DNA of 64,000 nucleotides from Escherichia phage chee24: sequence record NC_047885.1; one strand, written 5' to 3'. Position 1 is the first letter of the stretch, and every line of letters starts with the position of its first letter. A program made the position numbers and the translations under genes. Under the pieces are notes generated by a model. The model was not told the origin of the DNA. It was given only the letters and a program-made list of their open reading frames with translations, and did not search any database. This document shows, one piece after another, positions 926-41,150 of the stretch.

Positions 926-954
926 ATTATACAGAGAATTAAGTAAAATAGCAA
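926..954 (-). promoter_or_regulatory. sigma70-like early promoter (minus sense TTGCTA-17-TATAAT) driving the tRNA-Pro/Met/Lys cluster
   Basis: Plus-strand ATTATA at 926-931 and TAGCAA at 949-954, 17-bp spacer, A/T-rich upstream element. Confidence 0.6.
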
Positions 955-970
955 ATGAATTTTTAATAAA

Positions 971-1092
971 TTTACTTATTATGTAGGCCGCCTGGAGGCT
1001 ACCAACCCCACGGCTGACAAAGAAGTTTGCGAGACTTCTCTTAAAAGCCAGAATAGACCCGCCGGTCTATCGGAACCTACATAATAAGTAAA
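971..1092. repeat. perfect 17-bp inverted repeat (TTTACTTATTATGTAGG / CCTACATAATAAGTAAA) flanking an 88-bp core
   Basis: Arms at 971-987 and 1076-1092 are exact reverse complements; core contains a further hairpin AGAAGT-TTGCGAG-ACTTCT. Confidence 0.8.
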
Positions 1093-1104
1093 CTTTATAG
1101 TGTC

Positions 1105-1226
1105 ATTCTAGGCAGGACTCGAACCTGCTATCACTTGTGCGGACTTACGAGAACCATTCTTTCACTCGAATCGAACGAGCTTCTGCCCTCGCCAAGCTGG
1201 TTTCCCCCATCAACCACGCTAGAATG
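1105..1226 (-). ncRNA. tRNA-like element, possible pseudo-tRNA or disrupted tRNA
   Basis: Canonical T-arm GCAGG-TTCGAGT-CCTGC at 1111-1128 and 7-bp acceptor-like pairing between 1105-1111 and 1219-1225, but span is too long and no clean anticodon arm was found. Confidence 0.25.
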
Positions 1227-1347
1227 TTAGATTGTTTTCAGTGCAAGAGTCCGAGTCTTGGACACGACCGCTTCGCAAGTACATAGGCAGCTTATCATGA
1301 GTCAGCACTTCCGAATTGCTAGCTCCGTGTTCTGCACTGAAATTTTA

Positions 1348-3213: not shown

Positions 3214-3501
3214 CTAAGCAACTACATTTTTTAGGAATTTGATCCCTTTCTTTTTCTTCTTATATTTCCACGTTAATGGATTCTGTCGATTATGAACGCT
3301 TGAGATCTTTGTCTCGTCAAAGTTCTTCAATATCATGTAATCACAGGATAATTGTTCTAGTGGAATGTGATCACCGTCAAAAGCGTATACATAAGGCTGT
3401 TGACTAGCACGATAATGATAGACTTTGTTAATTCTACGTTTCAGCGACTTATCCGCGCAGTAAATAAAGAAGTTTTCAGGATGCATCAGCATCTCCTTCA
3501 A
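3214..3501 (-). CDS. hypothetical protein (95 aa)
   Basis: ORF in the minus-strand series. Confidence 0.5.
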   Translation of the reverse strand: MKEMLMHPENFFIYCADKSLKRRINKVYHYRASQQPYVYAFDGDHIPLEQLSCDYMILKNFDETKISSVHNRQNPLTWKYKKKKKGIKFLKNVVA

Positions 3502-9095: not shown

Positions 9096-9597
9096 TTTAA
9101 GTATTTTTAAGAACTCTCGTAAAAACTCTTAAAAATACAGACGATACCGGGAGAGTCATAAGTCTCACTCATTAAGTATTTCAAGACAAAATACAGTAAC
9201 GTCTATTATTTTCCAGTTTAAGTCAAGGTGACTTAGTGGTTATGTCCTGCGGTATACTGAGGACTAGGTTAGGTTAGGGTCATGACTCCCCACCTTTTTG
9301 CTGCTACTCAACAGGAGTTATCGCGAATTACCTGTGCTATTGTGCACCATTAGTGGCATCTCTCATGCCAGCATTTCCCACTTTGTGGATAGTTTGAAAA
9401 ACTACTCCGATATGGAGAAAGAACTTCACTATCCTAGAATACCTTCTAAAGTTCTTCTTTAGCCTGGACATAGTTAAATCGTAATAAAACTATTCAGCAG
9501 ACTGGTTGGTTAGTCTGGAACCAACTACCGCGTGGTTTAGGCAGTGCGCAACTAACCTCGGAAGCTTTTACATTAAAAGCACCAGTTATCCAGTTCT

Positions 9598-9670
9598 TAC
9601 CGACCGTAGGATTCGAACCTACATCTTCCACCAGTTACGGCTTGATAATACCGTTTTATACTAGATCGGC
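9598..9670 (-). ncRNA. tRNA-like element (canonical acceptor stem and T-arm, irregular core)
   Basis: Acceptor GCCGATC/GGTCGGT and T-arm GTAGG-TTCGAAT-CCTAC; no standard anticodon arm identified. Confidence 0.3.
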
Positions 9671-9893
9671 AGTGTTACTACATAAGTGATTTCCACACCC
9701 CACTATCAGTAAATTAGAGAAGAGTTTAGGGGAGAGGTTTCAGACGCCCCATTTTACACGTTCTAGCCACTAACCGGGATTGCCGCCCCCTGTGTACTAG
9801 TTTTCCAACTAACCCACCGACTCTATTCAATGCGCTCCGGTTGGGATTCTGCACTCAGCGTAATCGGCTCGCTGTTCTCTAATTTATGAATAT

Positions 9894-10612: not shown

Positions 10613-11080
10613 TTAAGTTTTAGTGACAACAGGCTTATAAAATGTATGTCCCTTAATCTTAGTTGTTTTCTTAAACTTCTTTGTCCAGTATGGTTTATCT
10701 TTACCACTATGGAAGTATAAAGCTCCATGTGTAGGATCTTGTGGTAAATCAACGTAGTATATCACTCTAGCTAAATTCTTGGCGGTTTGCCAAGCCTCAT
10801 CAGTTTTATCAACTTTTGGTCTCTTAGATACCCAAGAGAACTGGTTAGACTGATATACTACTTTACAGTAGGAATCTGGGAATTTACCGGAGTTTACACG
10901 GTTTTTAGTAACATGTGCAATCGCCGTCATTCCCTTTATGCCCTCACCACGACTTTCGAAATAGATATTTTTAGCAATGCAATCTATTTCTTTTGCATCG
11001 TGCGATGCCTGACTACTAAAGCTGAAGGTAAGGGCAGCTACTAAAAGCAAAGCTGCCTTCATTCTTTTTACTCCTGCCAA
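10613..11080 (-). CDS. secreted cell-wall hydrolase, SleB/Hydrolase_2-like (155 aa)
   Basis: Signal-peptide-like MKAALLLVAALTFSFSSQA, then IYFESRGEGIKGMTAIAHVTKNRV motif. Confidence 0.6.
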   Translation of the reverse strand: MAGVKRMKAALLLVAALTFSFSSQASHDAKEIDCIAKNIYFESRGEGIKGMTAIAHVTKNRVNSGKFPDSYCKVVYQSNQFSWVSKRPKVDKTDEAWQTAKNLARVIYYVDLPQDPTHGALYFHSGKDKPYWTKKFKKTTKIKGHTFYKPVVTKT

Positions 11081-30646: not shown

Positions 30647-30863
30647 AAAATGGGAAACAAGGAAGTTTCCAGTGAAAGAGCGTAAAGTTCCTGTTTATGA
30701 TACTTCGGAAAAGCTATGTAGGGTGGTACCACATAGATTAGCTGGTATCCCTAACATATCCGAGTGGTTACTTAAACAACGGAGGACTAACGTATCTCTT
30801 CGCATAGGGTTTGAGTTAGATAAAGTATATGCTGAACTTTCTTCTTTGCTCAAGGAATCGTAA
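30630..30863 (+). CDS. small hypothetical protein (77 aa)
   Basis: ATG behind AGGTG; overlaps the end of the NTPase gene. Confidence 0.4.
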   Translation: MTVKNKKWETRKFPVKERKVPVYDTSEKLCRVVPHRLAGIPNISEWLLKQRRTNVSLRIGFELDKVYAELSSLLKES

Positions 30864-30871
30864 AAATTTAT

Positions 30872-30900
30872 TTGCTTTCAGGAAAATTTTTCTGTATAAT
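30872..30900 (+). promoter_or_regulatory. strong early promoter matching the classic T5 P_N25 sequence from memory
   Basis: AAAAATTTATTTGCTTTCAGGAAAATTTTTCTGTATAATAGATTCATAAATTTGAGAGAGGAG; -35 30872-30877, -10 30895-30900. Confidence 0.85.
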
Positions 30901-30931
30901 AGATTCATAAATTTGAGAGAGGAGTTTAAAT

Positions 30932-31636
30932 ATGGCTGGTTCTCGCAGAAAGAAACATATCCATGAAATCCCTGATGAAGTCTTTAAAAAAGTTATAGAG
31001 CATCTGGAGAACGGTGGTACCAAGAAAGCAGCTTGTGAAATGCTCGGCGTATCATCCAATCCAACTATGGAAAGGATGATTGAAGAATGGCAAGATCGCC
31101 AAATTCAAGTTGCCGAGATGAAGAAAAAGAAACGTGGTACACTCATTGAAGGTATTGAGTTGGCCAACGTTATTGAACAGTATCTATCTGGCGATTCTTT
31201 TGAAGAGATTGCCGATCGTAATTACCGCTCTGTAGCAATGGTTAAATCTGTTCTGGAACGATATGGTGCTCTACTTCGTTTGAACGATATTGTAGACCCA
31301 TTGAATCCTCCAATTATCCCTGACGATGCTGTAGCAGAAGAATTTGAAGTTGGAGAACTAGTTTGGGTTCCTGGATACCAGTGTATCGGTGAAATCAAAA
31401 AAGCAATGGATAATCCTGTTGGTTGTTATCGAGTCTGGTTACTATCGGAAGGAAAACAACAGAACGTTCATTATATGAATTACGAGCTGGCTTCTGTTAA
31501 ACATCTGGAAAAGTTAGGGGTTGACGTAAAATCTCTGGGGTACAAGTGGACTCGTGAAGAAGTTATTACGTTGATTAATGAAGCTGTTAAGGCTGCCTTG
31601 AAACTTGATAAAGAAAAAGGAAAACGCCGTGAGTAG
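30932..31636 (+). CDS. helix-turn-helix domain protein (234 aa), putative regulator
   Basis: HTH-like GGTKKAACEMLGVS near the N-terminus; first gene behind the P_N25-like promoter. Confidence 0.6.
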   Translation: MAGSRRKKHIHEIPDEVFKKVIEHLENGGTKKAACEMLGVSSNPTMERMIEEWQDRQIQVAEMKKKKRGTLIEGIELANVIEQYLSGDSFEEIADRNYRSVAMVKSVLERYGALLRLNDIVDPLNPPIIPDDAVAEEFEVGELVWVPGYQCIGEIKKAMDNPVGCYRVWLLSEGKQQNVHYMNYELASVKHLEKLGVDVKSLGYKWTREEVITLINEAVKAALKLDKEKGKRRE

Positions 31637-31880
31637 ACTAACTGATTTACTTAAAGATGGAGAAGTAAAAACTCTGTATCGTAGAAGCTGGGATAATGAT
31701 AATAATGGCTTAGTGTTACTAACTTTAGATGCTGACTCGGATGTAGCTACTCAGCATACCTGGGTAGCCGGTAACTATCCATATAGCGAGGTTGTTTCAT
31801 TAACAGTATGCGAAGCTATTGCAGACGATTGGGAGGTTGCCAGCATCGAGGATATGCTCGCTGTTGGCCTGGTGGAGTAA
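31629..31880 (+). CDS. hypothetical protein (about 83 aa)
   Basis: Start at GTG 31629 behind AAGGAAAA; track start 31605 is a TTG. Confidence 0.4.
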   Translation: MSRLTDLLKDGEVKTLYRRSWDNDNNGLVLLTLDADSDVATQHTWVAGNYPYSEVVSLTVCEAIADDWEVASIEDMLAVGLVE

Positions 31881-31897
31881 CTACTTAAAAATTTCAG

Positions 31898-31926
31898 TTG
31901 CTTAATCCTATAATTCTTGATATAAT
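31898..31926 (+). promoter_or_regulatory. sigma70-like early promoter (TTGCTT-17-TATAAT)
   Basis: -35 31898-31903, -10 31921-31926. Confidence 0.6.
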
Positions 31927-31983
31927 ATTCTCATAGTTTGAAAGAACTATTCTGTTTAATTCTTAATTAAGGAAATATAAAAT

Positions 31984-32394
31984 ATGACTACTCCAACTCA
32001 GTGGACTGATGAACTGTTCGAAAAAATGTCTTCCGAATACGTTGCTCGTATGGAGCAATTCCCAGAGGATGAACGTCCGGGTGTTAGCATGGAAATTGTT
32101 AGCGAAATTGCCCAGGAAAACGGTGTAACTCCGAACGGTTTTCGTATGAAGCTAACTAAAGCAGGTATGTATATCAAGAAAGCTGCTGGCTCCGCTTCTA
32201 AATCTAGCGCATCTGCTGGAGAAAAAGCTTCTGGTGGTTCTCGTACTTCCAAAGCCCAAGCTCATGCCGATCTTCGTTCAGCATTCTCTGATGCTGGCCT
32301 AGCACCAGATTTTCTGGATGATGCAATTATCGACAAACTGACCGGTAAAGCGGCTGCCCATCTTGCAGAAGCAATCCGAGCTATCACTAAGTAA
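31984..32394 (+). CDS. hypothetical protein (136 aa) with Ser/Ala-rich linker
   Basis: ORF behind AAGGAAA. Confidence 0.5.
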   Translation: MTTPTQWTDELFEKMSSEYVARMEQFPEDERPGVSMEIVSEIAQENGVTPNGFRMKLTKAGMYIKKAAGSASKSSASAGEKASGGSRTSKAQAHADLRSAFSDAGLAPDFLDDAIIDKLTGKAAAHLAEAIRAITK

Positions 32395-32430
32395 TTTTTA
32401 GATAAATCCACCAACAAAAGGAACACAGTT

Positions 32431-32727
32431 ATGACCAAAGCTGAAATTATCGCACAATGTGAAAAATTTGGTGAGTTTTATCTTCATTACGAGAAACTTC
32501 GTCAGAAAGGAACCACGTACCTTCAGGGTACGATGGAATTTGATCCAGCCCAAGATAAATATCTGGCTGAGCGTATTAAACGTGAACGTATTCGTAAAGC
32601 GAAAGATGATGAAATCCTTGTCTTCTCTCGTACTAATGATAGTTTCCGTTTTATTCCTGTCGAGAAAGTCCGTCGTGTGACTAGCCTCCAATCAGAGTTA
32701 GATCGTGCTTCTCCAGTAGGCCGATAA
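32431..32727 (+). CDS. hypothetical protein (98 aa)
   Basis: ORF behind AAAGGAA. Confidence 0.5.
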   Translation: MTKAEIIAQCEKFGEFYLHYEKLRQKGTTYLQGTMEFDPAQDKYLAERIKRERIRKAKDDEILVFSRTNDSFRFIPVEKVRRVTSLQSELDRASPVGR

Positions 32728-32777
32728 GAAACCAATTAGCCCCTATATGGGGCTTTTTGTGTATTTGGGATATGTAA

Positions 32778-33086
32778 ATGAGCGAACAGGTAAATCAAAA
32801 CTATGAAGGACACGTTGATGACCAGTCCATCATACTTTGGGAGAAGGAGGGAGAACAAGTAAGATTAACAGTATCTGAATTTCGTGGGAATCTATACATG
32901 GGTATTCGTTACTGGCTTCTTGATATTAATGATGAATGGTTTCCAACGAAATCTGGCTTCTCTTTTCCTTACACCCTAGAAACAACATCACAGCTTTTCT
33001 ATGCGTTTACACAGATTCTTAGCGAATCTGAGGTTTTACATGAAGTACAGAAACGAGCTGAAGAACTCAAAGCCAAGAATGCCTAG
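32778..33086 (+). CDS. hypothetical protein (102 aa), possibly PC4-like ssDNA-binding fold
   Basis: ORF; product call rests on weak resemblance only. Confidence 0.45.
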   Translation: MSEQVNQNYEGHVDDQSIILWEKEGEQVRLTVSEFRGNLYMGIRYWLLDINDEWFPTKSGFSFPYTLETTSQLFYAFTQILSESEVLHEVQKRAEELKAKNA

Positions 33087-33104
33087 TTCTTGGCTTTTTC
33101 TTTA
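33071..33104 (+). terminator. rho-independent terminator overlapping the stop of 32778-33086
   Basis: Stem AGCCAAGAA/TTCTTGGCT followed by TTTTTCTTT. Confidence 0.6.
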
Positions 33105-33113
33105 TAAATGTAT

Positions 33114-33142
33114 TTGCTTTCAACTCAGTTTTGTTATATAAT
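33114..33142 (+). promoter_or_regulatory. sigma70-like early promoter (TTGCTT-17-TATAAT)
   Basis: -35 33114-33119, -10 33137-33142. Confidence 0.6.
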
Positions 33143-33171
33143 ATTTATATAAATTAATGAGAGGATCAATC

Positions 33172-33372
33172 ATGGCAATGACAATAACACTTCCCAAGAT
33201 TCAAGCAAAACTTAATCTACTTTCCACAGCACGCATTAATTATCAAGATAGCATAGGCACAGTAAATCAAAAGGTGTACAAAGATGCGTTCCTGAAAGAA
33301 TCTGCTGATTTGATGGATATGGTTACACAATATAATAAAGAACTCAAGATGGAAATCGCCGATGATGAATAA
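33172..33372 (+). CDS. small hypothetical protein (66 aa)
   Basis: ATG behind GAGAGGA; track start 33157 lies in the leader. Confidence 0.4.
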   Translation: MAMTITLPKIQAKLNLLSTARINYQDSIGTVNQKVYKDAFLKESADLMDMVTQYNKELKMEIADDE

Positions 33373-34336
33373 TGTAAAAGGCTTTATTAAGCGTTGTCAA
33401 GAAGCATATTATCAGGGTATGTCTTTAATCTCTGATGAGGAGTATGATTGCCTGGTAAAACGCTTCCCGTTAGAAGAAGAGATCGGGCCTAAGGGTGATA
33501 TTCCACATCTGTATCGTATGTATTCTTTACAGAAAGTTTATTATAATCGTGGAGATAAACCCCCGTTTAACCCGTTAGGTCAAGTAGAAACTGATAAGTT
33601 AGATGGTTGTGCAATTTCTCTGCTATATATTAATGGCGAATTTGTTCAAGCACTAACTCGTGGTAACGGTATTCTGGGAAATGATGTCACAAGCAACGTA
33701 AGATTGCTGAACATCCCTAAAAAGATTTCCCAAAAAGTACCTACTCAAATCACTGGTGAAGTTCTAATTACAAAAGAAGTAGAAAATAAACGTAATTTTG
33801 CCTCTGGCGCTATTAACCTCAAAGATAGTGATGATTTCGTACAACGCATTGGAGAAGGCGGTTTAATCTTTGTTGCTTACGGTATCCAATGTTCTGCTGA
33901 ATCTGTAGGTATTACAGAAGCATATTTAAAAGATATGCTTTGGCTAGAGAATGAGAACTTCTTAACAGTTGTTAATGTGCGTTCCTTTTTTAAATGGATT
34001 CCGACGGACGGTAAAGTTGTTCGTATTAATGACAACAACAAATTCTTCCGTGAAGGCTGGACTAATAAATTCCCTCGTGGAGCATTCGCCATTAAAGAGG
34101 ATGAAGAAGGCGAGATTACAACTCTTACTAAAGTTGAATGGCAGGTAGGGGCTTCTGGTAAAGTAACTCCAGTCGGTTATTTTGAACCAGTAATTATTGA
34201 TGATGCTACAATTGTTAAAGCGACTCTTAATAACGTTGATTATATTAACTCTCTTGATCTAGAGATCGGTTGCCAGATTCGAGTGATTCGTGCTGGTGGT
34301 GTAATCCCGTGCATAGTAGAGCGAGTATACGATTAA
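33362..34336 (+). CDS. NAD-dependent DNA ligase, N-terminal part (adenylation domain with KxDG)
   Basis: Active-site KLDG motif; ORF ends before any zinc-finger/HhH/BRCT region. Confidence 0.75.
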   Translation: MMNNVKGFIKRCQEAYYQGMSLISDEEYDCLVKRFPLEEEIGPKGDIPHLYRMYSLQKVYYNRGDKPPFNPLGQVETDKLDGCAISLLYINGEFVQALTRGNGILGNDVTSNVRLLNIPKKISQKVPTQITGEVLITKEVENKRNFASGAINLKDSDDFVQRIGEGGLIFVAYGIQCSAESVGITEAYLKDMLWLENENFLTVVNVRSFFKWIPTDGKVVRINDNNKFFREGWTNKFPRGAFAIKEDEEGEITTLTKVEWQVGASGKVTPVGYFEPVIIDDATIVKATLNNVDYINSLDLEIGCQIRVIRAGGVIPCIVERVYD

Positions 34337-34479
34337 TACATAACCCTTTGCTACCCATCTACCATATCGGAATTATAAAGTGGTTATTGACATTTCCGCC
34401 GCTTAGGTATATACTATTATCATTCAGTTGAGGGATAGAAAGTTATGGCGAGGGTAAGCAAAGTTAGTTAAAATTGTAG

Positions 34480-34508
34480 TTGCTAAATGCTTAAATACTT
34501 GCTATAAT
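34480..34508 (+). promoter_or_regulatory. sigma70-like promoter (TTGCTA-17-TATAAT) between the two ligase ORFs
   Basis: -35 34480-34485, -10 34503-34508. Confidence 0.6.
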
Positions 34509-34538
34509 ATTTATATAAATTGATAAGGAAGAAATTTG

Positions 34539-35318
34539 ATGAAAATCGAAATTCCAACACAATGTCCCTCTTGTGGTTCTAAGCTAGATCTTGTCAACGG
34601 ACAATTATTCTGTCGTAATAAGTCCAACTGTCCAGCGCAATCAAGTAAGTTAATTGAGAACTTCTGTACAAAAATGAAGTTAAAGGGCTTTGGCCCAAAA
34701 ACTATTGAGAAGCTGGAGCTGACGAAGATTTCAGAACTATTTTACCTAACCGAAGAAGATTTGGTTAGAGCCGTGGGTAGCAAGGTTGCCGCTAAGTTAA
34801 TTAGCGAATTAAATAATAAAGTTCGCGGAGACATTGACTTTGGTTCAGTTCTCGGTTCTTTAGGAATCCCTCTAATCGGAGAGGTTGCAGCAAAGAAATT
34901 GTCCCAAAATTGCACCAGTTTTCAAGATGTGAGAGCTGATGGCAGAGCTGGAGAAAATTATAAAGCCTGGCTAAATTCCCCACAAGGCAAGGATGTTATC
35001 GAATTACCGTGGAAATTCACAACTGGTATTAAAGGTGCTAAAGCTGAGGTCATCATCACTGATGGTCTAGTAGCCCAACCAAACGGAATAACGGTATGTA
35101 TTACCGGATCTTTGCAAGATTTTGCAAATAGAACGGATGCAACAAACTATTTAGAAGGTCTAGGATATACGGTTAAGAAATCCGTTACCAAAGACGTCAA
35201 ATACCTAATCTGTGAGGATGAATCGAAGCGTTCTTCCTCATCTTATAAGAAAGCCGAAACGAATGGGATAGAAATCCTGTCGATTAAAGAACTATTGGAG
35301 AAAAATAATAATGTCTAA
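34539..35318 (+). CDS. NAD-dependent DNA ligase, C-terminal part (zinc finger, HhH, BRCT-like)
   Basis: CPSCGS...CRNKSNCPAQ zinc-finger motif; ATG at 34539 behind AAGGAAGAAA. Confidence 0.7.
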   Translation: MKIEIPTQCPSCGSKLDLVNGQLFCRNKSNCPAQSSKLIENFCTKMKLKGFGPKTIEKLELTKISELFYLTEEDLVRAVGSKVAAKLISELNNKVRGDIDFGSVLGSLGIPLIGEVAAKKLSQNCTSFQDVRADGRAGENYKAWLNSPQGKDVIELPWKFTTGIKGAKAEVIITDGLVAQPNGITVCITGSLQDFANRTDATNYLEGLGYTVKKSVTKDVKYLICEDESKRSSSSYKKAETNGIEILSIKELLEKNNNV

Positions 35319-36078
35319 ACTGAACTGGAACGTAGAAGGTGTAACCGAGTCTCTGAAAGCAAAAGCCACTGCTCTGGGTGTTGCTGTAATCTCTCAAGAA
35401 CAAGTAGCTGCTATCGCTGCTGAACTGGCTGCTGAAACTGGCAAAGACGTTACCGCTCGCTCTGTTGGCTCTAAGCTGCGTAAAGAAGGTTTCGAAGTAC
35501 AGAAAGCTAACGAAGTACAGAAATCCCCATGGACTCCTGAGCAGGAAGCTGAACTGGTTGATTTCCTGAACGCTCATGCTGGTCAGTATACTTATGCTGA
35601 AATCGCTGCTGCTGTAGCTGGTGGTCAGTTCGGTGCTAAGCAGGTACAGGGTAAAATCTTGAGTCTGGAAATGACCGCATCTGTTAAGCCGACCGAAAAA
35701 GCTGCTGCTGTTCGTTCCTTCACTCCGGATGAAGAAACTGACTTTGTTAATCAGGTTGTTGCTGGAGCTACTATTGAAGCTATCGCTGCTCACTTCGGTC
35801 GTAATATCAAGCAGATCCGTGGTAAAGCTCTGAGTCTGCTTCGTGAAGGTCGTATCGCTGCTATGCCGGTACAGGAAACTTCAAGTGCTAAAACTCGTGA
35901 AGATCTGTTAGAAGGTCTGGATCTGGCTAACATGACTGTTGCTGAGATCGCTGAGAAAACTGGTAAGTCTGAGCGCGGTGTTAAATCTATGCTGTCTCGT
36001 CGTGGTCTGGTTGCTAAGGACTATGATGGTGCCGCTAAGCGTGCTAAACTGGATGCAAAAGCTGCGGCTGCTGAATAA
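35311..36078 (+). CDS. abundant-type protein with three internal HTH-like repeats (255 aa), putative DNA-binding
   Basis: Three repeats (TYAEIAAA...GKILSL, IEAIAAHFG...GKALSLL, TVAEIAEKTG...KSML); codon choice looks strongly host-optimal. Confidence 0.55.
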   Translation: MSKLNWNVEGVTESLKAKATALGVAVISQEQVAAIAAELAAETGKDVTARSVGSKLRKEGFEVQKANEVQKSPWTPEQEAELVDFLNAHAGQYTYAEIAAAVAGGQFGAKQVQGKILSLEMTASVKPTEKAAAVRSFTPDEETDFVNQVVAGATIEAIAAHFGRNIKQIRGKALSLLREGRIAAMPVQETSSAKTREDLLEGLDLANMTVAEIAEKTGKSERGVKSMLSRRGLVAKDYDGAAKRAKLDAKAAAAE

Positions 36079-36095
36079 TCTGGTAAATTAAACCT

Positions 36096-36130
36096 AAGGG
36101 GAGGGGGCTATGCTCCTTCCCCTTTTTGCA
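36096..36130 (+). terminator. rho-independent terminator after 35311-36078
   Basis: Stem AAGGGGAGG/CCTTCCCCTT followed by TTTTG. Confidence 0.6.
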
Positions 36131-36160
36131 TTTAGAAGGCACGAAAGCGTGCAAAGGAGA

Positions 36161-37633
36161 ATGACCTTGTTTAACGTGCAAGCTGTAGTGTTGAAGATGC
36201 TTCTAGCTTCCGAACAGAAGCAAATAGCATTGGAAACATTCTCAAAACTGCATAAAGATCATTTTAATGACGCTTTCTCCTCAATTTACCAAGCCGTCCA
36301 GAATTATTATAAAAAATATAACACAATGCCGTCCATTGACGCACTGATGCTTGAGGCTAATAGGAACGCCCGCCTTTCTCAAGCTCTAGTCGTTTTAGCT
36401 AACACTCAAATTCCAGAAGTTAGCATGGAACAGGCACTTGAAGTCCTAGAAGCCGAGTATACACAGGATTTATTCCTGAAGCTTCTAGAAACAGACGTGC
36501 TTCAAGATTTAACAATGCTGGATCAGGGAGAAATTCTTAACCGAGTTGCCTCCCTTCACTTAAAATTAGAAGAGAAAGTAACGAATACTGGAAAAGTATT
36601 CAACGCAGATAACATGCGTATTTTCCAGAGAGAAGAAGATACCAAACTGAACTTAATCGCTCTTGGTATTTGTAATGAGTTCGACGCTCAAATTGGTTTA
36701 GCTCGCACAGAAACGTTACTGCTTGGTGGTTGGCGTGGTACTGGTAAATCCATTATCTGTTCAAACATACAGGTTCAGCAATATTTGAATGGAGATATTG
36801 CTCCATACTTCTCAATTGAGATGAAAGAACATGAAGTATTTAGACGTAATCTAGCTATGTTAGCTGGTGTATCAGCACTAGCAATGCGTAATAATACTCT
36901 AGAAGGTGCAGCTCTGTTGAGATTAGCCAGAACTAGAGCTAGGATGTTTAACGGTGGTGAAGAGCTTTTCGATAACTTCGTTAAACAGTACACAATGGCT
37001 AAGATGAGTGATTTCTACGATATGGAAAGTAAGCTAATAGAAGGGTATGAATTACATACTCCTATGATTATTGTTTATGATCCTGAGCTGTCTATTACAA
37101 CAGTTGACGTAGAATTAAATAAATTAGTTGCTAGATATGGGGATAAAGTTACAGTAGCTTTACTGGACTATATTAACCAAACCCGACTTCCAGATTCTAA
37201 AACCATTGATATGTATGACTGGAAAGAACAGATGGTTGTTAGCTCGTCTTTCAAATCTATCTGCCAGAAACATAACGTGGCTGGTGTAGCTCCTTACCAG
37301 ATTGATCAAGATGGTAGAACACGTATGTCAAAGGGGATTCTTGATTCCGCAGACATGGCTGCTAATCTTAATGCTGCAAAAGCGGATAATGGTCAAGGTG
37401 CTATTATGTTTGACTTCGTTAAGACTCGTTCTTCTGATAGCGTGAAGTTTATGCCTAAAATGAACTGGGAAACCCTGCGGATGGATAACACTACCAACCT
37501 AGCAATGGAAGATATATCTCAAATGGAAGCTGAGTTCGTTATCCCTATTGAGAAGGATAAGCCGGCTCAATCTAAACGTGCTAAGAAAGACAAAGCTGAA
37601 AATTCAACAGGTGAACAGGCCAGCGATATATGA
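36161..37633 (+). CDS. DnaB-family replicative helicase-like protein
   Basis: Walker A GWRGTGKS and SIEM (DnaB SLEM-like) motif; start moved to the ATG behind AAAGGAGA, past the terminator. Confidence 0.65.
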   Translation: MTLFNVQAVVLKMLLASEQKQIALETFSKLHKDHFNDAFSSIYQAVQNYYKKYNTMPSIDALMLEANRNARLSQALVVLANTQIPEVSMEQALEVLEAEYTQDLFLKLLETDVLQDLTMLDQGEILNRVASLHLKLEEKVTNTGKVFNADNMRIFQREEDTKLNLIALGICNEFDAQIGLARTETLLLGGWRGTGKSIICSNIQVQQYLNGDIAPYFSIEMKEHEVFRRNLAMLAGVSALAMRNNTLEGAALLRLARTRARMFNGGEELFDNFVKQYTMAKMSDFYDMESKLIEGYELHTPMIIVYDPELSITTVDVELNKLVARYGDKVTVALLDYINQTRLPDSKTIDMYDWKEQMVVSSSFKSICQKHNVAGVAPYQIDQDGRTRMSKGILDSADMAANLNAAKADNGQGAIMFDFVKTRSSDSVKFMPKMNWETLRMDNTTNLAMEDISQMEAEFVIPIEKDKPAQSKRAKKDKAENSTGEQASDI

Positions 37634-38520
37634 GTAGAATAACAGAACTACTTGATCTGAAAGGCATTGAATATAAAGACACAGGTGGGGACATCCTCAT
37701 CTGTTGTCTCAATCCAGATCATGATGATAAACACCCAAGTTTGCGTATTGACCCTGAAACAGGTATTATGCACTGCTTGAGTTGTGGCTTCGGTAAAGGT
37801 ATACCGAGCATTTACCATTATTTTAATGAGACTCAGTACCGACAGTCCCCAAGGCTATCGCAAGTACGTAAAAAGATTTCAGAGATTAGGAATGGATCAA
37901 CGAATCTTGCAATTCCTGAATCTGCTTGCCTTTTCGAAGGTGATTTCCGAGGTATAAGTTCTAAGACCTTGAAGAAATATTTTGCTTTCCAACACCAAGC
38001 AGACTGGGAAGGCAGAATTGTATTCCCAATCACAGATGCTGTTGGACGCAATATCCTATTTTTGGGTCGTTCTATAAACAGTTCTGCCCCTCCTAAATAC
38101 TTAGTAAAACCAAAACAAGTTTCACCACCAATTTTTCCTGTACGATATAATACTCCAGTTCTTATTCTAGTTGAAGGCATCTTTGATATGCTGAACCTAG
38201 AGGATAATGGTATAGACTATACTTCTTGCTGCTTTGGTACACATCAGTTTACTTCGGATAACATTGCAGATAAGTTCAGTCCTTATATTATTGCCGGTGT
38301 AAAAGTTGTTGTTATCTTACTAGATAATGATGCTTCTGGTAGTAAAGCTGCACAAGCATTGGCCAAGCTAATTCGTACAAAAACGCGTTTAACACCTGTA
38401 GTTGCTAACTTTCTTCTGCCTGAAGGTAAAGACCCTGGTGACTTAAATAAAGAAGAGATTGATATGTTAGCAAAACGTATTGAAATTTTAGTTGCTGAAT
38501 CGCTTAAAGATTTGGTATAA
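37630..38520 (+). CDS. DNA primase (zinc-binding domain plus TOPRIM)
   Basis: CLNPDHDDKHPS...HCLSCG zinc motif; TOPRIM LVEGIFDML...LLDNDASG; ATGA coupling. Confidence 0.75.
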   Translation: MSRITELLDLKGIEYKDTGGDILICCLNPDHDDKHPSLRIDPETGIMHCLSCGFGKGIPSIYHYFNETQYRQSPRLSQVRKKISEIRNGSTNLAIPESACLFEGDFRGISSKTLKKYFAFQHQADWEGRIVFPITDAVGRNILFLGRSINSSAPPKYLVKPKQVSPPIFPVRYNTPVLILVEGIFDMLNLEDNGIDYTSCCFGTHQFTSDNIADKFSPYIIAGVKVVVILLDNDASGSKAAQALAKLIRTKTRLTPVVANFLLPEGKDPGDLNKEEIDMLAKRIEILVAESLKDLV

Positions 38521-38582
38521 TATATTGGTAAGTTAGAGAAGAAACACTGAAGTTATACTTGCTTACCAAGAGGAGATTAAAT

Positions 38583-41150
38583 TTGAAAATCGCAGTAGTT
38601 GATAAAGCTCTAAATAATACTCGTTATGATAAACATTTCCAGCTATACGGCGAGGAAGTTGATGTATTCCATATGTGTAACGAGAAGTTATCCGGTCGTT
38701 TGCTCAAAAAGCATATTACTATCGGGACTCCGGAAAACCCATTTGACCCGAATGATTATGATTTTGTTATACTGGTAGGTGCCGAACCTTTTCTGTACTT
38801 TGCAGGTAAGAAAGGTATTGGTGATTATACCGGTAAACGTGTAGAGTATAATGGATATGCTAACTGGATTGCGAGTATCAGCCCAGCCCAGCTACACTTT
38901 AAACCTGAAATGAAACCAGTTTTTGATGCAACAGTAGAGAATATCCACGATATTATTAATGGTCGTGAGAAGATTGCAAAAGCTGGTGATTACCGTCCTA
39001 TTACTGACCCTGATGAGGCAGAAGAATATATCAAGATGGTGTATAATATGGTTATCGGACCTGTCGCATTCGACTCCGAAACCTCAGCACTATACTGTCG
39101 AGATGGTTATCTGCTTGGTGTTTCTATTTCTCACCAAGAGTATCAGGGTGTATATATCGATTCTGATTGTCTCACAGAGGTTGCAGTATACTATCTCCAG
39201 AAAATTCTGGATAGTGAAAACCATACTATTGTTTTTCACAACTTGAAGTTTGATATGCACTTTTATAAGTACCATCTGGGACTTACTTTTGATAAAGCGC
39301 ATAAAGAACGCAGGCTCCATGATACCATGTTGCAGCACTATGTTCTAGATGAACGTCGGGGTACTCATGGCTTGAAATCTCTAGCAATGAAGTATACCGA
39401 TATGGGTGACTATGACTTCGAACTAGATAAGTTCAAAGATGATTACTGCAAAGCACATAAAATCAAGAAAGAAGATTTCACCTATGATTTAATTCCGTTT
39501 GATATTATGTGGCCTTATGCTGCGAAAGATACAGATGCTACCATACGTTTGCACAACTTCTTCTTACCAAAAATTGAGAAGAATGAAAAACTTTGCAGTC
39601 TGTACTACGATGTTTTGATGCCTGGTTGCGTATTCTTGCAACGTGTTGAGGATCGTGGAGTACCTATCTCTATTGATCGTTTGAAAGAAGCTCAGTATCA
39701 ACTGACTCATAATTTGAATAAAGCCCGTGAGAAACTGTACACTTATCCAGAAGTTAAACAGCTAGAACAAGATCAGAATGAAGCATTTAACCCGAACTCT
39801 GTTAAACAACTTCGTGTTCTTCTGTTCGATTATGTTGGTTTGACTCCAACTGGTAAGTTAACAGATACTGGTGCAGATTCTACAAACGCAGAAGCTCTGA
39901 ATGAACTGGCTACGCAGCATCCAATTGCTAAAACTCTACTAGAGATTCGTAAGCTTACTAAGCTAATCTCTACTTATGTTGAGAAGATTCTTCTGAGTAT
40001 TGATGCAGATGGTTGCATTCGTACTGGTTTCCATGAACATATGACTACTTCTGGTCGTCTGAGTTCTTCTGGTAAGCTGAACTTACAACAGCTACCCCGT
40101 GATGAATCTATCATTAAGGGTTGTGTAGTTGCACCACCTGGATACCGTGTAATCGCATGGGACTTAACAACTGCGGAAGTTTATTATGCTGCTGTTCTAT
40201 CTGGTGATAGAAATATGCAACAAGTATTTATCAACATGAGAAATGAACCTGATAAATACCCTGACTTCCACTCTAACATCGCCCACATGGTATTTAAATT
40301 GCAATGTGAACCTCGTGATGTTAAGAAGCTGTTCCCAGCTCTACGTCAGGCAGCTAAGGCAATTACCTTTGGTATTTTGTACGGTTCTGGCCCGGCTAAA
40401 GTAGCACATTCTGTTAACGAAGCATTGCTAGAACAAGCAGCCAAAACTGGTGAACCGTTTGTTGAATGTACTGTTGCAGATGCTAAAGAGTACATTGAGA
40501 CTTACTTTAGTCAATTCCCACAGCTTAAGCGTTGGATTGATAAGTGCCACGATCAGATCAAGAATCATGGGTTTATCTATAGTCACTTTGGTCGTAAACG
40601 TCGTCTGCATAATATCCATTCCGAAGACCGTGGCGTTCAGGGTGAAGAAATTCGTTCTGGATTTAACGCAATCATTCAGTCTGCTTCTTCTGATAGTCTC
40701 CTTTTAGGTGCTGTAGATGCAGATAATGAAATCATTTCTCTTGGTTTAGCACAAGAGATGAAGATTGTTATGCTGGTTCATGACTCCGTAGTTGCTATTG
40801 TTCGTGAGGATTTGATCGACCAATACAATGAAATTCTGATTCGTAATATTCAGAAAGACCGGGGTATCAGTATTCCTGGCTGTCCGATTGGTATTGATTC
40901 AGATTCTGAAGCTGGAGGTTCTCGTGACTATTCTTGTGGTAAGATGAAGAAACAGCACCCATCAATCGCTTGTATTGATGATGATGAATATACTCGTTAC
41001 GTTAAAGAAATGCTTCTTGATTCTGAATTCGAGTATAAGAAGTTAGCAGCAATGGATAAAGAGCATCCAGACCACAGCAAGTACAAGGATGATAAGTTTA
41101 TTGCTGTATGCAAAGATCTGGATAACGTGAAAAGGATTCTCGGTGCTTAA
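38583..41150 (+). CDS. DNA polymerase, family A, with 3'-5' exonuclease domain; TTG start
   Basis: N-terminus (M)KIAVVDKALNN matches remembered T5 polymerase; TTG at 38583 lies 7 nt after AAGAGGAG; 855 aa. Confidence 0.9.
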   Translation: MKIAVVDKALNNTRYDKHFQLYGEEVDVFHMCNEKLSGRLLKKHITIGTPENPFDPNDYDFVILVGAEPFLYFAGKKGIGDYTGKRVEYNGYANWIASISPAQLHFKPEMKPVFDATVENIHDIINGREKIAKAGDYRPITDPDEAEEYIKMVYNMVIGPVAFDSETSALYCRDGYLLGVSISHQEYQGVYIDSDCLTEVAVYYLQKILDSENHTIVFHNLKFDMHFYKYHLGLTFDKAHKERRLHDTMLQHYVLDERRGTHGLKSLAMKYTDMGDYDFELDKFKDDYCKAHKIKKEDFTYDLIPFDIMWPYAAKDTDATIRLHNFFLPKIEKNEKLCSLYYDVLMPGCVFLQRVEDRGVPISIDRLKEAQYQLTHNLNKAREKLYTYPEVKQLEQDQNEAFNPNSVKQLRVLLFDYVGLTPTGKLTDTGADSTNAEALNELATQHPIAKTLLEIRKLTKLISTYVEKILLSIDADGCIRTGFHEHMTTSGRLSSSGKLNLQQLPRDESIIKGCVVAPPGYRVIAWDLTTAEVYYAAVLSGDRNMQQVFINMRNEPDKYPDFHSNIAHMVFKLQCEPRDVKKLFPALRQAAKAITFGILYGSGPAKVAHSVNEALLEQAAKTGEPFVECTVADAKEYIETYFSQFPQLKRWIDKCHDQIKNHGFIYSHFGRKRRLHNIHSEDRGVQGEEIRSGFNAIIQSASSDSLLLGAVDADNEIISLGLAQEMKIVMLVHDSVVAIVREDLIDQYNEILIRNIQKDRGISIPGCPIGIDSDSEAGGSRDYSCGKMKKQHPSIACIDDDEYTRYVKEMLLDSEFEYKKLAAMDKEHPDHSKYKDDKFIAVCKDLDNVKRILGA

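What the first reader, a model, noticed from the sequence alone, without database searches (positions are those of the whole stretch)
971..1092. 88-bp element flanked by perfect 17-bp inverted repeats inside the tRNA cluster
TTTACTTATTATGTAGG (971-987) and its exact reverse complement (1076-1092) enclose an 88-bp, relatively GC-rich core with an internal hairpin. It lies between a tRNA-like element and an early promoter and has no ORF or tRNA fold. Candidates are a miniature inverted-repeat insertion, a structured small RNA or processing site, or a nuclease target.
Basis: seen in the sequence. Interest (0 to 1): 0.5.

Follow-up and report, generated by a model that had tools for sequence, protein, structure and literature searches.

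The report
T5 stable RNA IV gene
The inverted repeats are the two strands of the closing helix of "RNA IV", a small structured non-coding RNA gene already annotated in phage T5 and its relatives, whose function is still unknown.

Summary
TTTACTTATTATGTAGG (971-987) and its exact reverse complement (1076-1092) enclose an 88-bp core of 54.5% GC. The window is a T5-like phage, 100% identical here to the pork27/chee24 subgroup.

The element is the gene rnaIV ("RNAIV, stable RNA with unknown functions", 103 nt). It is annotated in T5 (AY543070), BF23 (AJ604530) and Salmonella phage 5 (AJ604531), and maps to window 980-1082 on the minus strand. It lies between the tRNA-like RNA2 and early promoter P13a.

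The arms form the terminal helix of the RNA precursor. The annotated mature ends fall inside that helix, so the arms most likely act as a processing stalk, probably for RNase III.

Across 31 distinct homologues the fold is a long stem closing a four-way junction with three hairpins. It is 98.9% paired, and 20 of 49 pairs show compensatory changes. Two loops, GGCG and CUCGCAA, are essentially invariant, including in a distant homologue in Pectobacterium phage DU_PP_V.

It is single-copy, absent from the 5,426 E. coli genomes searched, not in Rfam, and not a tRNA. It is dispensable in the laboratory, since the T5Mos deletion removes it. The MITE and nuclease-target readings are rejected. The gene is already known; its function is an old open question.

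The parts
980..1082 (-). Mature RNA IV (103 nt), 5'-AUGUAGGUUCC...GGCCUACAUA-3', placed by homology to annotated rnaIV
   Evidence: rnaIV is annotated in BF23 AJ604530 5371-5473, T5 AY543070 32838-32940 and phage 5 AJ604531 5465-5567. Coordinates were transferred through alignment A1. The covariance model scores 162.6 bits on the minus strand.
1076..1095 (-). 5' arm of the precursor helix (RNA sense AAGUUUACUUAUUAUGUAGG). The outer 13 bp (1083-1095) lie outside the mature RNA
   Evidence: AAAGUUUACUUAUU is invariant in 32 of 32 homologues.
968..987 (-). 3' arm of the precursor helix (RNA sense CCUACAUAAUAAGUAAAUUU). The outer part overlaps the A/T-rich region upstream of the P13a -35 box
   Evidence: AAUAAGUAAAUUUAU is identical in 31 of 32 homologues. 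The DU_PP_V version keeps pairing through G-U pairs.
981..982 (-). 3' half of the variable 2-bp site. Together with 1081-1082 it marks where the annotated mature ends lie. Fully paired here, mismatched in 29 of 32 relatives
1052..1071 (-). Hairpin H1: 8-bp stem with an invariant GGCG tetraloop (1060-1063)
   Evidence: Five of 8 pairs show compensatory changes. The GGCG loop is present in 32 of 32 homologues.
1014..1051 (-). Hairpin H2: 5 bp, an A/U-rich internal loop, 8 bp, and a 7-nt loop CUCGCAA (1027-1033)
   Evidence: Eight of 13 pairs show compensatory changes. The CUCGCAA loop is present in 31 of 32 homologues; DU_PP_V has CUCGCAC.
995..1009 (-). Hairpin H3: short stem and loop, variable in sequence but kept as a hairpin
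   Evidence: Four of 6 pairs show compensatory changes. Loop variants are listed.
926..954 (-). Adjacent early promoter P13a (-35 TTGCTA, 17-nt spacer, -10 TATAAT), driving tRNA-Pro and tRNA-fMet. Context, not part of the RNA
   Evidence: Best promoter match in the scan, 10 of 12. It coincides with the annotated P13a of BF23 and T5.

Best explanation
The element is the gene for RNA IV, a roughly 103-nt stable non-coding RNA of T5-like phages. It is transcribed from the minus strand as the last gene of an early polycistronic tRNA/ORF transcription unit, immediately upstream of promoter P13a.

The two 17-bp arms are not transposon ends. In the transcript they pair to form a helix of about 24 bp that closes a four-way junction carrying three hairpins.

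The outer 13 bp act as a processing stalk. A double-strand-specific cut, most likely by host RNase III followed by slight 3' trimming, at the variable 2-bp site inside the arms releases RNA IV. The inner 7 bp of the arms remain as its terminal helix, which, together with the compact junction, would make it exonuclease-resistant and so 'stable'.

The trans function is unknown. The invariant GGCG tetraloop and CUCGCAA heptaloop are the probable contact surfaces for a protein or RNA partner.

Shown here: identity with rnaIV, strand, fold, covariation, loop invariance, single copy, and distribution. Inferred: RNase III as the enzyme, the stalk role, and the loops as a binding surface. Sub-confidences: about 0.95 for 'is the rnaIV gene and the arms are its terminal helix', and about 0.5 for RNase III specifically.
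For: Identity and synteny:
- The window is 100% identical to T5-like pork27 and its siblings, and 97% to BF23.
- rnaIV is annotated at the homologous position in BF23, T5 and phage 5, between RNA2 and P13a (alignment).

Strand:
- All 15 tRNA genes are on the minus strand.
- The minus-strand fold is -57.6 kcal/mol against -48.0 for the plus strand.
- The covariance model scores 162.6 bits on the minus strand against 30.7 on the plus strand.
- There are nine conserved G-U pairs that would be C-A on the other strand.

Structure:
- RNAalifold on a MAFFT alignment gives 49 pairs, 11 of them with compensatory changes.
- On 31 distinct sequences, 98.9% of cells are paired and 20 of 49 pairs have double changes. 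None of 500 shuffles reaches this, and slid controls give 6 or fewer.

Processing:
- The annotated mature ends fall inside the continuous precursor helix, leaving a 1-nt 3' overhang.
- The sibling T5 RNAs, RNA III and RNA2H, also have long closing helices that extend beyond their annotated ends, with exactly 2-nt 3' overhangs. That is the RNase III geometry.

Functional constraint:
- The GGCG loop is present in 32 of 32 homologues and CUCGCAA in 31 of 32.
- Both loops and the 5' arm are retained in the distant Pectobacterium phage DU_PP_V, where the stems differ (E = 1.5e-7).

Distribution: 405 phage records carry the element at 76-100% identity.
Against: - No expression or end-mapping data could be examined here. 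The mature ends rest on GenBank annotation, and I could not read its experimental basis.
- The RNA IV ends give a 1-nt rather than a 2-nt 3' overhang, so RNase III alone does not account for them.
- The invariance of the outer 3' arm could owe something to its overlap with the A/T-rich upstream region of P13a rather than to RNA function.
- The T5Mos deletion 30661-38625 removes rnaIV and the phage still grows (PMC11464382), so any trans function is conditional.
- No Rfam family and no open-access paper describing RNA IV was found.
Confidence: 0.85

Rival explanations
1. The element works only in cis, as a boundary or insulator at the end of the upstream transcription unit. It would be a large hairpin that pauses or terminates RNA polymerase, or that separates processing of the upstream RNAs from the P13a unit. 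The stable RNA would then be a by-product without any function in trans.
For: - It is the last element before promoter P13a, and no other terminator is annotated there.
- It is a very stable helix.
- It is dispensable in T5Mos.
- The 3' arm abuts the promoter's upstream A/T tract.
Against: - The closing helix is A/U-rich and is followed by AUUAAAAAUU, not a U-run. The terminator scan flags only H1, and weakly; 2 sites were found in the region against 1.4 expected.
- A pure roadblock hairpin would not need two sequence-invariant apical loops or three covarying internal hairpins.
- In DU_PP_V the element is not followed by the same promoter, yet the loops are kept.
Confidence: 0.12
2. RNA IV is a degenerate tRNA or tRNA mimic. 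Its inner 7 bp plus the single 3' A would be an acceptor stem with discriminator base, cut by RNase P and extended with CCA. H2, with its 7-nt loop C-U-CGC-A-A, would mimic an anticodon arm, for example as a decoy for a tRNA-targeting host nuclease.
For: - The junction is cloverleaf-like, with four helices.
- The annotated ends leave about 7 bp plus a 1-nt 3' overhang.
- The H2 loop fits the anticodon-loop pattern Y-U-NNN-R-N and is invariant.
- It sits among tRNA and 'tRNA-like' RNA genes.
- T5 tRNAs are known counter-defence factors (PMC11464382; PMC10644984).
Against: - ARAGORN and the Rfam tRNA model at E<=10 do not recognise it.
- H1 is an 8-bp stem with a tetraloop, not a D arm.
- The H2 stem is 13 bp with an internal loop, not 5 bp.
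- The H3 loop does not fit the T-loop consensus in most variants.
- There are no linker nucleotides at positions 8-9 or 26.
- The leader and trailer are fully base-paired for 13 bp, which is a poor RNase P substrate (established knowledge of RNase P).
- No CCA is encoded.
Confidence: 0.1
3. The element is a miniature inverted-repeat mobile element or other insertion, with the 17-bp arms as terminal inverted repeats.
For: Perfect terminal inverted repeats enclose a short non-coding core. A 209-bp indel carrying tRNA-Gly(GCC) lies immediately next to one arm in relatives.
Against: - There is a single copy in the window and in T5.
- The arm 8-mer is not enriched, 8 found against 5.7 expected.
- There is no copy in 5,426 E. 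coli genomes or in bacterial species genomes.
- Seventy-nine IMG/VR contigs with arm-like 16-mers are chance matches.
- The position is the same in every Markadamsvirinae relative examined.
- The arms show RNA-type covariation with G-U pairs.
- No flanking target-site duplication is visible.
- The neighbouring indel does not include the element.
Confidence: 0.02
4. The element is a DNA-level site, such as a cruciform, a protein operator or a homing-endonuclease target formed by the palindromic arms.
For: - The tRNA region of T5-like phages carries HNH homing endonucleases; hegB lies just downstream of P13a in phage 5.
- Relatives carry a true 22-bp palindrome, TAAGTAAAC-GAAA-GTTTACTTA, at the 5' arm.
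Against: - Most relatives have a mismatch in the arms, and DU_PP_V keeps pairing only through G-U pairs, which do not pair in DNA.
- The covarying internal hairpins have no DNA-level rationale.
- The palindrome's left half is missing in this window and in T5.
Confidence: 0.03

Closest known systems
rnaIV (RNA IV) of phage T5, BF23 and Salmonella phage 5, annotated in GenBank as 'stable RNA with unknown functions'
   Same: The same gene. About 96-97% identity to T5 and BF23 over the 138-nt model region, with the same neighbours (RNA2 upstream, P13a and tRNA-Pro downstream), the same strand and the same predicted fold.
   Different: In this phage subgroup a single C-to-U difference in the 3' arm closes the A-C mismatch found in T5 and BF23, making the arms a perfect 17-mer. 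There are also three further substitutions relative to BF23 in H1, H3 and the inner stem.
Other T5 stable RNAs in the tRNA region (RNA III, RNA2H; outside this window)
   Same: The same architecture. A multi-branch core is closed by a long helix made from flanking inverted repeats, and the annotated mature ends lie inside that helix.
   Different: There is no detectable sequence or covariance-model homology; model R1 finds only RNA IV in the 7-kb T5 segment. Their ends give 2-nt 3' overhangs, whereas RNA IV gives 1 nt.
RNase III processing stalks of bacterial rRNA operons and phage T7 early RNA sites (established knowledge)
   Same: Flanking complementary sequences form a double-stranded stem of about 20 bp or more. 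The stem is cut to release the structured RNA it encloses, and an internal mismatch at the cut site is common in phage sites.
   Different: RNase III dependence is untested here. The annotated overhang is 1 nt, and the released RNA is a small 103-nt species of unknown function.
Phage T4 species 1 and species 2 RNAs (rnaC, rnaD) in the T4 tRNA cluster (from memory; not tested here)
   Same: Small stable RNAs of unknown function, co-transcribed and co-processed with phage tRNAs.
   Different: No sequence comparison was made here. It is a different phage family, and the T4 RNAs are, as I recall, processed through the tRNA pathway.
tRNA
   Same: Four-helix junction, a 7-nt loop fitting the Y-U-NNN-R-N pattern, location in a tRNA cluster, and a terminal helix of about 7 bp in the mature form.
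   Different: It fails the tRNA detectors, and its arm lengths and loops are not those of a tRNA.

Membership tests
T5-group rnaIV stable RNA gene | Sequence homology to the annotated rnaIV of T5, BF23 and phage 5 | tested here: met
   Pairwise alignment with BF23 is near-identical across the annotated 103 nt. A covariance model built from 19 homologues scores 162.6 bits in the window and 162.4 bits in T5.
T5-group rnaIV stable RNA gene | Synteny: between RNA2 and promoter P13a/tRNA-Pro, on the same strand as the tRNA genes | tested here: met
T5-group rnaIV stable RNA gene | Accumulates as a discrete RNA of about 103 nt in infected cells | not testable with these tools
   Only the GenBank annotation states this. 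No RNA data were available.
Conserved structured RNA | Base pairs maintained by compensatory substitutions beyond controls | tested here: met
   Twenty of 49 pairs have double changes and 98.9% of cells are paired. None of 500 shuffles matches this, and slid controls give 6 or fewer. A MAFFT/RNAalifold alignment made independently of the model gives 11 compensatory pairs.
RNase III processing stalk | Helix of about 20 bp or more formed by sequences flanking the mature RNA | tested here: met
   13 bp, a 2-bp site and 9 bp; the mature ends lie inside the helix.
RNase III processing stalk | Staggered ends with a 2-nt 3' overhang | tested here: inconclusive
   The annotated RNA IV ends give 1 nt. 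The sibling RNAs, RNA III and RNA2H, give exactly 2 nt.
RNase III processing stalk | Cleavage depends on RNase III | not testable with these tools
   Requires an rnc mutant host or an in vitro assay.
MITE / mobile insertion | Multiple dispersed copies sharing terminal inverted repeats | tested here: not met
   One copy in the window and in T5. The motif is not enriched. None in E. coli genomes. Arm-like matches elsewhere are chance.
MITE / mobile insertion | Target-site duplication, and presence/absence polymorphism with an empty site | tested here: not met
   No direct repeat flanks the arms. Every T5-like locus examined (about 30) carries the element at the same site.
tRNA | Canonical cloverleaf recognised by tRNA models (D arm, 5-bp anticodon stem, T loop) | tested here: not met
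   No ARAGORN call. No match to Rfam RF00005 at E<=10. Arm geometry differs.
Intrinsic terminator | G+C-rich hairpin immediately followed by a U tract | tested here: not met
   The closing helix is A/U-rich and is followed by AUUAAAAAUU. The scan flags only internal hairpin H1, at background frequency.
Any Rfam family | Score above the gathering threshold, or a credible E-value | tested here: not met
   Only two chance-level hits appear nearby, at E = 3 and E = 6, and neither overlaps the element.

The most novel reading that the evidence does not exclude
RNA IV is a trans-acting phage regulatory or counter-defence RNA. Its two invariant apical loops (GGCG and the anticodon-loop-like CUCGCAA), displayed on a rigid four-way junction, would dock onto a host or phage factor. 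Examples would be a decoy or inhibitor for a tRNA-directed nuclease or a tRNA-processing or modification enzyme. That would explain its conservation from Tequintavirus to a Pectobacterium phage even though it is dispensable on laboratory E. coli.
Probability: 0.15. Interest if true: 0.65.

Novelty: already known. Interest (0 to 1): 0.28.

Why it matters
The gene has been annotated in T5-family GenBank records since the 2000s, so the finding does not reveal a new kind of element.

Its value is modest but real. RNA IV and its sibling T5 'stable RNAs' have no Rfam family, are left unannotated in most of the modern T5-like genome records examined here (one search lists no feature under the match in almost all), and have no known function.

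The analysis here gives three things:
- a covariation-supported secondary structure;
- two invariant loops that can be mutated;
- a distant homologue in a Pectobacterium phage.

These make the old question of what the T5 tRNA-region RNAs do directly testable. That is timely, because this same genome region is now known to hold counter-defence tRNAs.

Tried and rejected
- Rfam at gathering threshold on the whole window, and at E<=10 on 880-1400: no family.
- ARAGORN: no tRNA or tmRNA at the site.
- Literature searches for T5 stable RNAs, RNA IV, RNase III and ncRNA. No open-access description of RNA IV was found. They yielded only context: the origin of the chee24/pork27 phages (PMC5816814), the T5Mos deletion (PMC11464382) and the BF23 genome (PMC10644984). 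One query failed on term length.
- IMG/VR scan with both arms returned only known isolates. A scan with the 5' arm alone returned a capped set of chance matches; model R1 found nothing in the 79 unrelated contigs searched.
- Metagenome scan returned 9 further T5-like copies and no new lineage.
- Bacterial species genomes: 4 chance matches.
- E. coli complete genomes: no match.
- Covariance-model search of 12-kb tRNA regions of a Sugarlandvirus and a Novosibvirus, including with filters off: nothing.
- Antisense target of the H2 loop within the window: only the gene's own opposite strand.
- Paralogy with T5 RNA I, RNA III and RNA2H: none detectable with model R1.
- An intramolecular GCG/CGC kissing interaction between the H1 and H2 loops was considered. 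It was left as speculation because H2 length is not conserved in DU_PP_V.
- Similarity to Y RNA/YrlA, 6S, 4.5S and 5S was considered from memory. None is supported by the Rfam scan.

Full report
**Observation.** The sequence shows TTTACTTATTATGTAGG at 971-987 and its exact reverse complement CCTACATAATAAGTAAA at 1076-1092. The pattern search confirms both copies with no mismatch. The repeat finder extends the arms to 968-987 and 1076-1095 (20 nt, 95% complementary, 88 nt apart). The 88-bp core is 54.5% G+C, against 39.4% for the window and 23.5% for the arms. No ORF of 20 aa or more overlaps 947-1130. ARAGORN finds no tRNA there. Rfam finds nothing at gathering threshold or at E<=10. In the whole 64-kb window only one other perfect inverted repeat of 17 nt or more within 250 nt exists, an all-A/T hairpin. 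The region folds far better than shuffles: -57.6 kcal/mol on the minus strand, z = -7.8.

**What the window is.** The 1.1 kb around the element is 100% identical to five 'T5-like' phages from food (pork27, pork29, saus47N, saus111K, poul124) and about 97% identical to BF23 and other Tequintaviruses. These phages are the chee24 subgroup described in PMC5816814. All 15 tRNA genes found in the window are on the minus strand.

**Identification.** Three curated GenBank records annotate the homologous stretch as misc_RNA gene rnaIV, product 'RNAIV', note 'stable RNA with unknown functions', 103 nt:
- BF23 tRNA region, AJ604530, 5371-5473;
- T5, AY543070, 32838-32940;
- Salmonella phage 5, AJ604531, 5465-5567.

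In all three the gene lies on the tRNA strand, directly downstream of 'RNA2' (a tRNA-like stable RNA) and directly upstream of promoter P13a, which precedes tRNA-Pro and tRNA-fMet. Pairwise alignment with BF23 transfers the annotation to window 980-1082 on the minus strand: 5'-AUGUAGGUUCC...GGCCUACAUA-3'. The promoter scan finds P13a as the best site in the region (-35 TTGCTA at 954-949, 17-nt spacer, -10 TATAAT at 931-926). RNA2 corresponds to 1101-1226.

**Anatomy.** On the minus strand the arms pair and close a four-way junction. In window coordinates:
- outer stem: 1083-1095 with 968-980 (13 bp);
- a 2-bp site: 1081-1082 with 981-982;
- inner stem: 1072-1080 with 983-992;
- hairpin H1: 1052-1071, an 8-bp stem with tetraloop GGCG;
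- hairpin H2: 1014-1051, made of 5 bp, an A/U-rich internal loop, 8 bp, and the 7-nt loop CUCGCAA at 1027-1033;
- hairpin H3: 995-1009.

Its 5' end lies at arm position 11, and its 3' end is one nucleotide beyond the partner of that position.

**Strand.** The RNA strand is the minus strand, on four grounds:
- the fold energy is -57.6 against -48.0 kcal/mol;
- the covariance-model score is 162.6 against 30.7 bits;
- there are nine conserved G-U pairs;
- gene order agrees.

**Comparative evidence.**
- blastn finds the element in 405 phage records at 76-100% identity, mostly Tequintavirus and Epseptimavirus. Only the two partial tRNA-region records listed there (BF23 AJ604530 and phage 5 AJ604531) carry an rnaIV annotation; a few other rows show only a promoter, repeat or hypothetical-protein label.
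- From fetched loci I collected 24 distinct variants and aligned 19 with MAFFT. RNAalifold gives 49 pairs, 11 of them with compensatory double changes.
- A covariance model (R1) then found a distant homologue in Pectobacterium phage DU_PP_V (Hongcheonvirus, subfamily Mccorquodalevirinae): 40.2 bits, E = 1.5e-7. Its stems differ, but the 5' arm AAAGUUUACUUAUUAAG, the H1 apex CGGCGG and the H2 loop CUCGCA are retained.
- The model found nothing in the 12-kb tRNA regions of a Sugarlandvirus and a Novosibvirus, even with filters off.
- With nine further metagenomic copies, the model alignment of 31 distinct sequences is 98.9% paired. Twenty of 49 pairs show changes on both sides. None of 500 shuffles reaches the observed values, and slid controls give at most 6 such pairs.
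- Every internal helix covaries. The outer arms barely vary.
- The GGCG loop is present in 32 of 32 sequences and CUCGCAA in 31 of 32.

**The 'perfect' arms are a local peculiarity.** In T5, BF23 and most relatives, arm position 11 is an A-C mismatch. Other lineages have A-A, A-G or A-C at position 12. Only this phage, one metagenomic contig and DU_PP_V are paired at both positions (3 of 32). These two positions are the most variable in an otherwise invariant helix, and they are exactly where the annotated mature ends lie.

**Mechanism.** The helix is best explained as the terminal helix and processing stalk of the RNA IV precursor. Three points support a double-strand-specific cut, with RNase III as the obvious host enzyme (established knowledge of rRNA and T7 early-RNA processing):
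- the helix is about 24 bp and is formed by sequences that flank the mature RNA;
- the mature ends lie opposite each other inside it;
- the two sibling T5 RNAs with the same build, RNA III and RNA2H, have annotated ends inside continuous helices with exactly 2-nt 3' overhangs.

RNA IV's own ends give 1 nt, so either one nucleotide is trimmed afterwards or another enzyme acts. I put RNase III at about 0.5.

RNase P (the tRNA-mimic rival) is less likely. The leader and trailer are fully paired, no CCA is encoded, and the RNA fails every tRNA test.

An intrinsic-terminator role is unlikely. The helix base is A/U-rich and has no U tract after it.

Part of the outer 3' arm's invariance may reflect its overlap with the A/T-rich tract upstream of the P13a -35 box (inference). 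However, DU_PP_V keeps the helix through G-U pairs without that promoter context.

**Function of the released RNA.** It remains unknown. The invariant loops on covarying stems argue for a sequence-specific partner. I found no antisense target for the H2 loop within the window. The RNA is dispensable on laboratory E. coli: T5Mos carries a deletion of 30661-38625, which includes rnaIV at 32838-32940, and it still plaques on cells without PARIS (PMC11464382). The same genome region encodes tRNAs that defeat host tRNA-targeting defences. A conditional, host-dependent role is therefore plausible but untested.

**Rejected readings.**
- A MITE or other mobile insertion is excluded for practical purposes:
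  - it is single-copy;
  - the arm motif is not enriched;
  - nothing is found in 5,426 E. coli genomes;
  - matches in bacterial genomes and in unrelated viral contigs are chance;
  - the position is fixed in the roughly 30 relatives examined;
  - no target-site duplication is visible.
- The indel next to the element does not involve the element. It is a 209-bp segment carrying tRNA-Gly(GCC) in BF23 and Epseptimavirus, absent here and in T5.
- A DNA-level nuclease or protein site is not supported, because what is conserved is RNA-type pairing.

**Novelty and score.** The gene is already known and annotated, so the finding is 'already known'. It is nonetheless an orphan. It has no Rfam family, almost none of the modern genome records listed annotate it, and I found no accessible functional study. 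Interest is 0.28.

Noticed in passing
window 1101-1226 (-): Homologue of T5/BF23 'RNA2', annotated as a tRNA-like stable RNA of unknown function. It has a clear T-arm-like hairpin (GCAGGTTCGAGTCCTGC) and an acceptor-like stem. ARAGORN does not call it, and Rfam tRNA does not match even at E<=10.
   Followed up: partly
window 1231-1336: A second inverted-repeat-flanked non-coding segment (arms TTTCAGTGCA... / ...TGCACTGAAA) lies between RNA2 and the ORF at 1348-1695. It is identical in BF23 and unannotated in T5. Its fold is not better than shuffles (z = -1.3), so it may not be a structured RNA.
   Followed up: partly
L001 (BF23) about 1985-2010; L031 (DU_PP_V) 3378-3400; Epseptimavirus loci L005-L007: Relatives carry a 22-bp palindrome, TAAGTAAAC-GAAA-GTTTACTTA, immediately 5' of RNA IV. 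Its right half is the 5' arm, so it could form an alternative hairpin with a GNRA loop. This 35-nt block is 94% or more identical between a Pectobacterium phage and Salmonella Epseptimaviruses, although the rest of the RNA has diverged. The left half was lost in T5 and in this window, together with a 209-bp tRNA-Gly(GCC) segment. The MFE still favours the RNA IV helix.
   Followed up: partly
L009 (T5 AY543070) 1285-1390, 2809-2980 and 1395-1501: T5 RNA III and RNA2H have annotated ends inside long continuous helices with 2-nt 3' overhangs, which is the RNase III geometry. T5 RNA I ends in ...GAGCC-GCCA, an acceptor-like stem with an encoded CCA. None of these RNAs has an Rfam family.
   Followed up: partly
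window 10751-10864 (-): A 19-nt inverted repeat (89% complementary) closes a four-way-junction-like fold (-40.7 kcal/mol, z = -4.75). The architecture resembles RNA IV, but it lies inside a 155-aa ORF (10613-11080, minus strand). Its nature is unresolved.
   Followed up: partly
window 9597-9671 (-) and about 9096-9815: ARAGORN's odd 'tRNA-Ser (anticodon ACT)', a weak Rfam tRNA hit at 34.5 bits, lies next to tRNA-Arg. That is where T5 annotates a 719-nt 'RNAX, stable RNA with unknown functions'. I did not align the two.
   Followed up: no
L003 (Salmonella phage 5) 604-937; T5 32593-32751: The slot between P13a and tRNA-Pro is variable. It is empty in this window, holds a small two-TM ORF (T5.066) in T5, and holds the HNH endonuclease F-TflIII (hegB) in phage 5. 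Several relatives have a roughly 209-bp insert there, annotated 'Rz-like spanin'.
   Followed up: no
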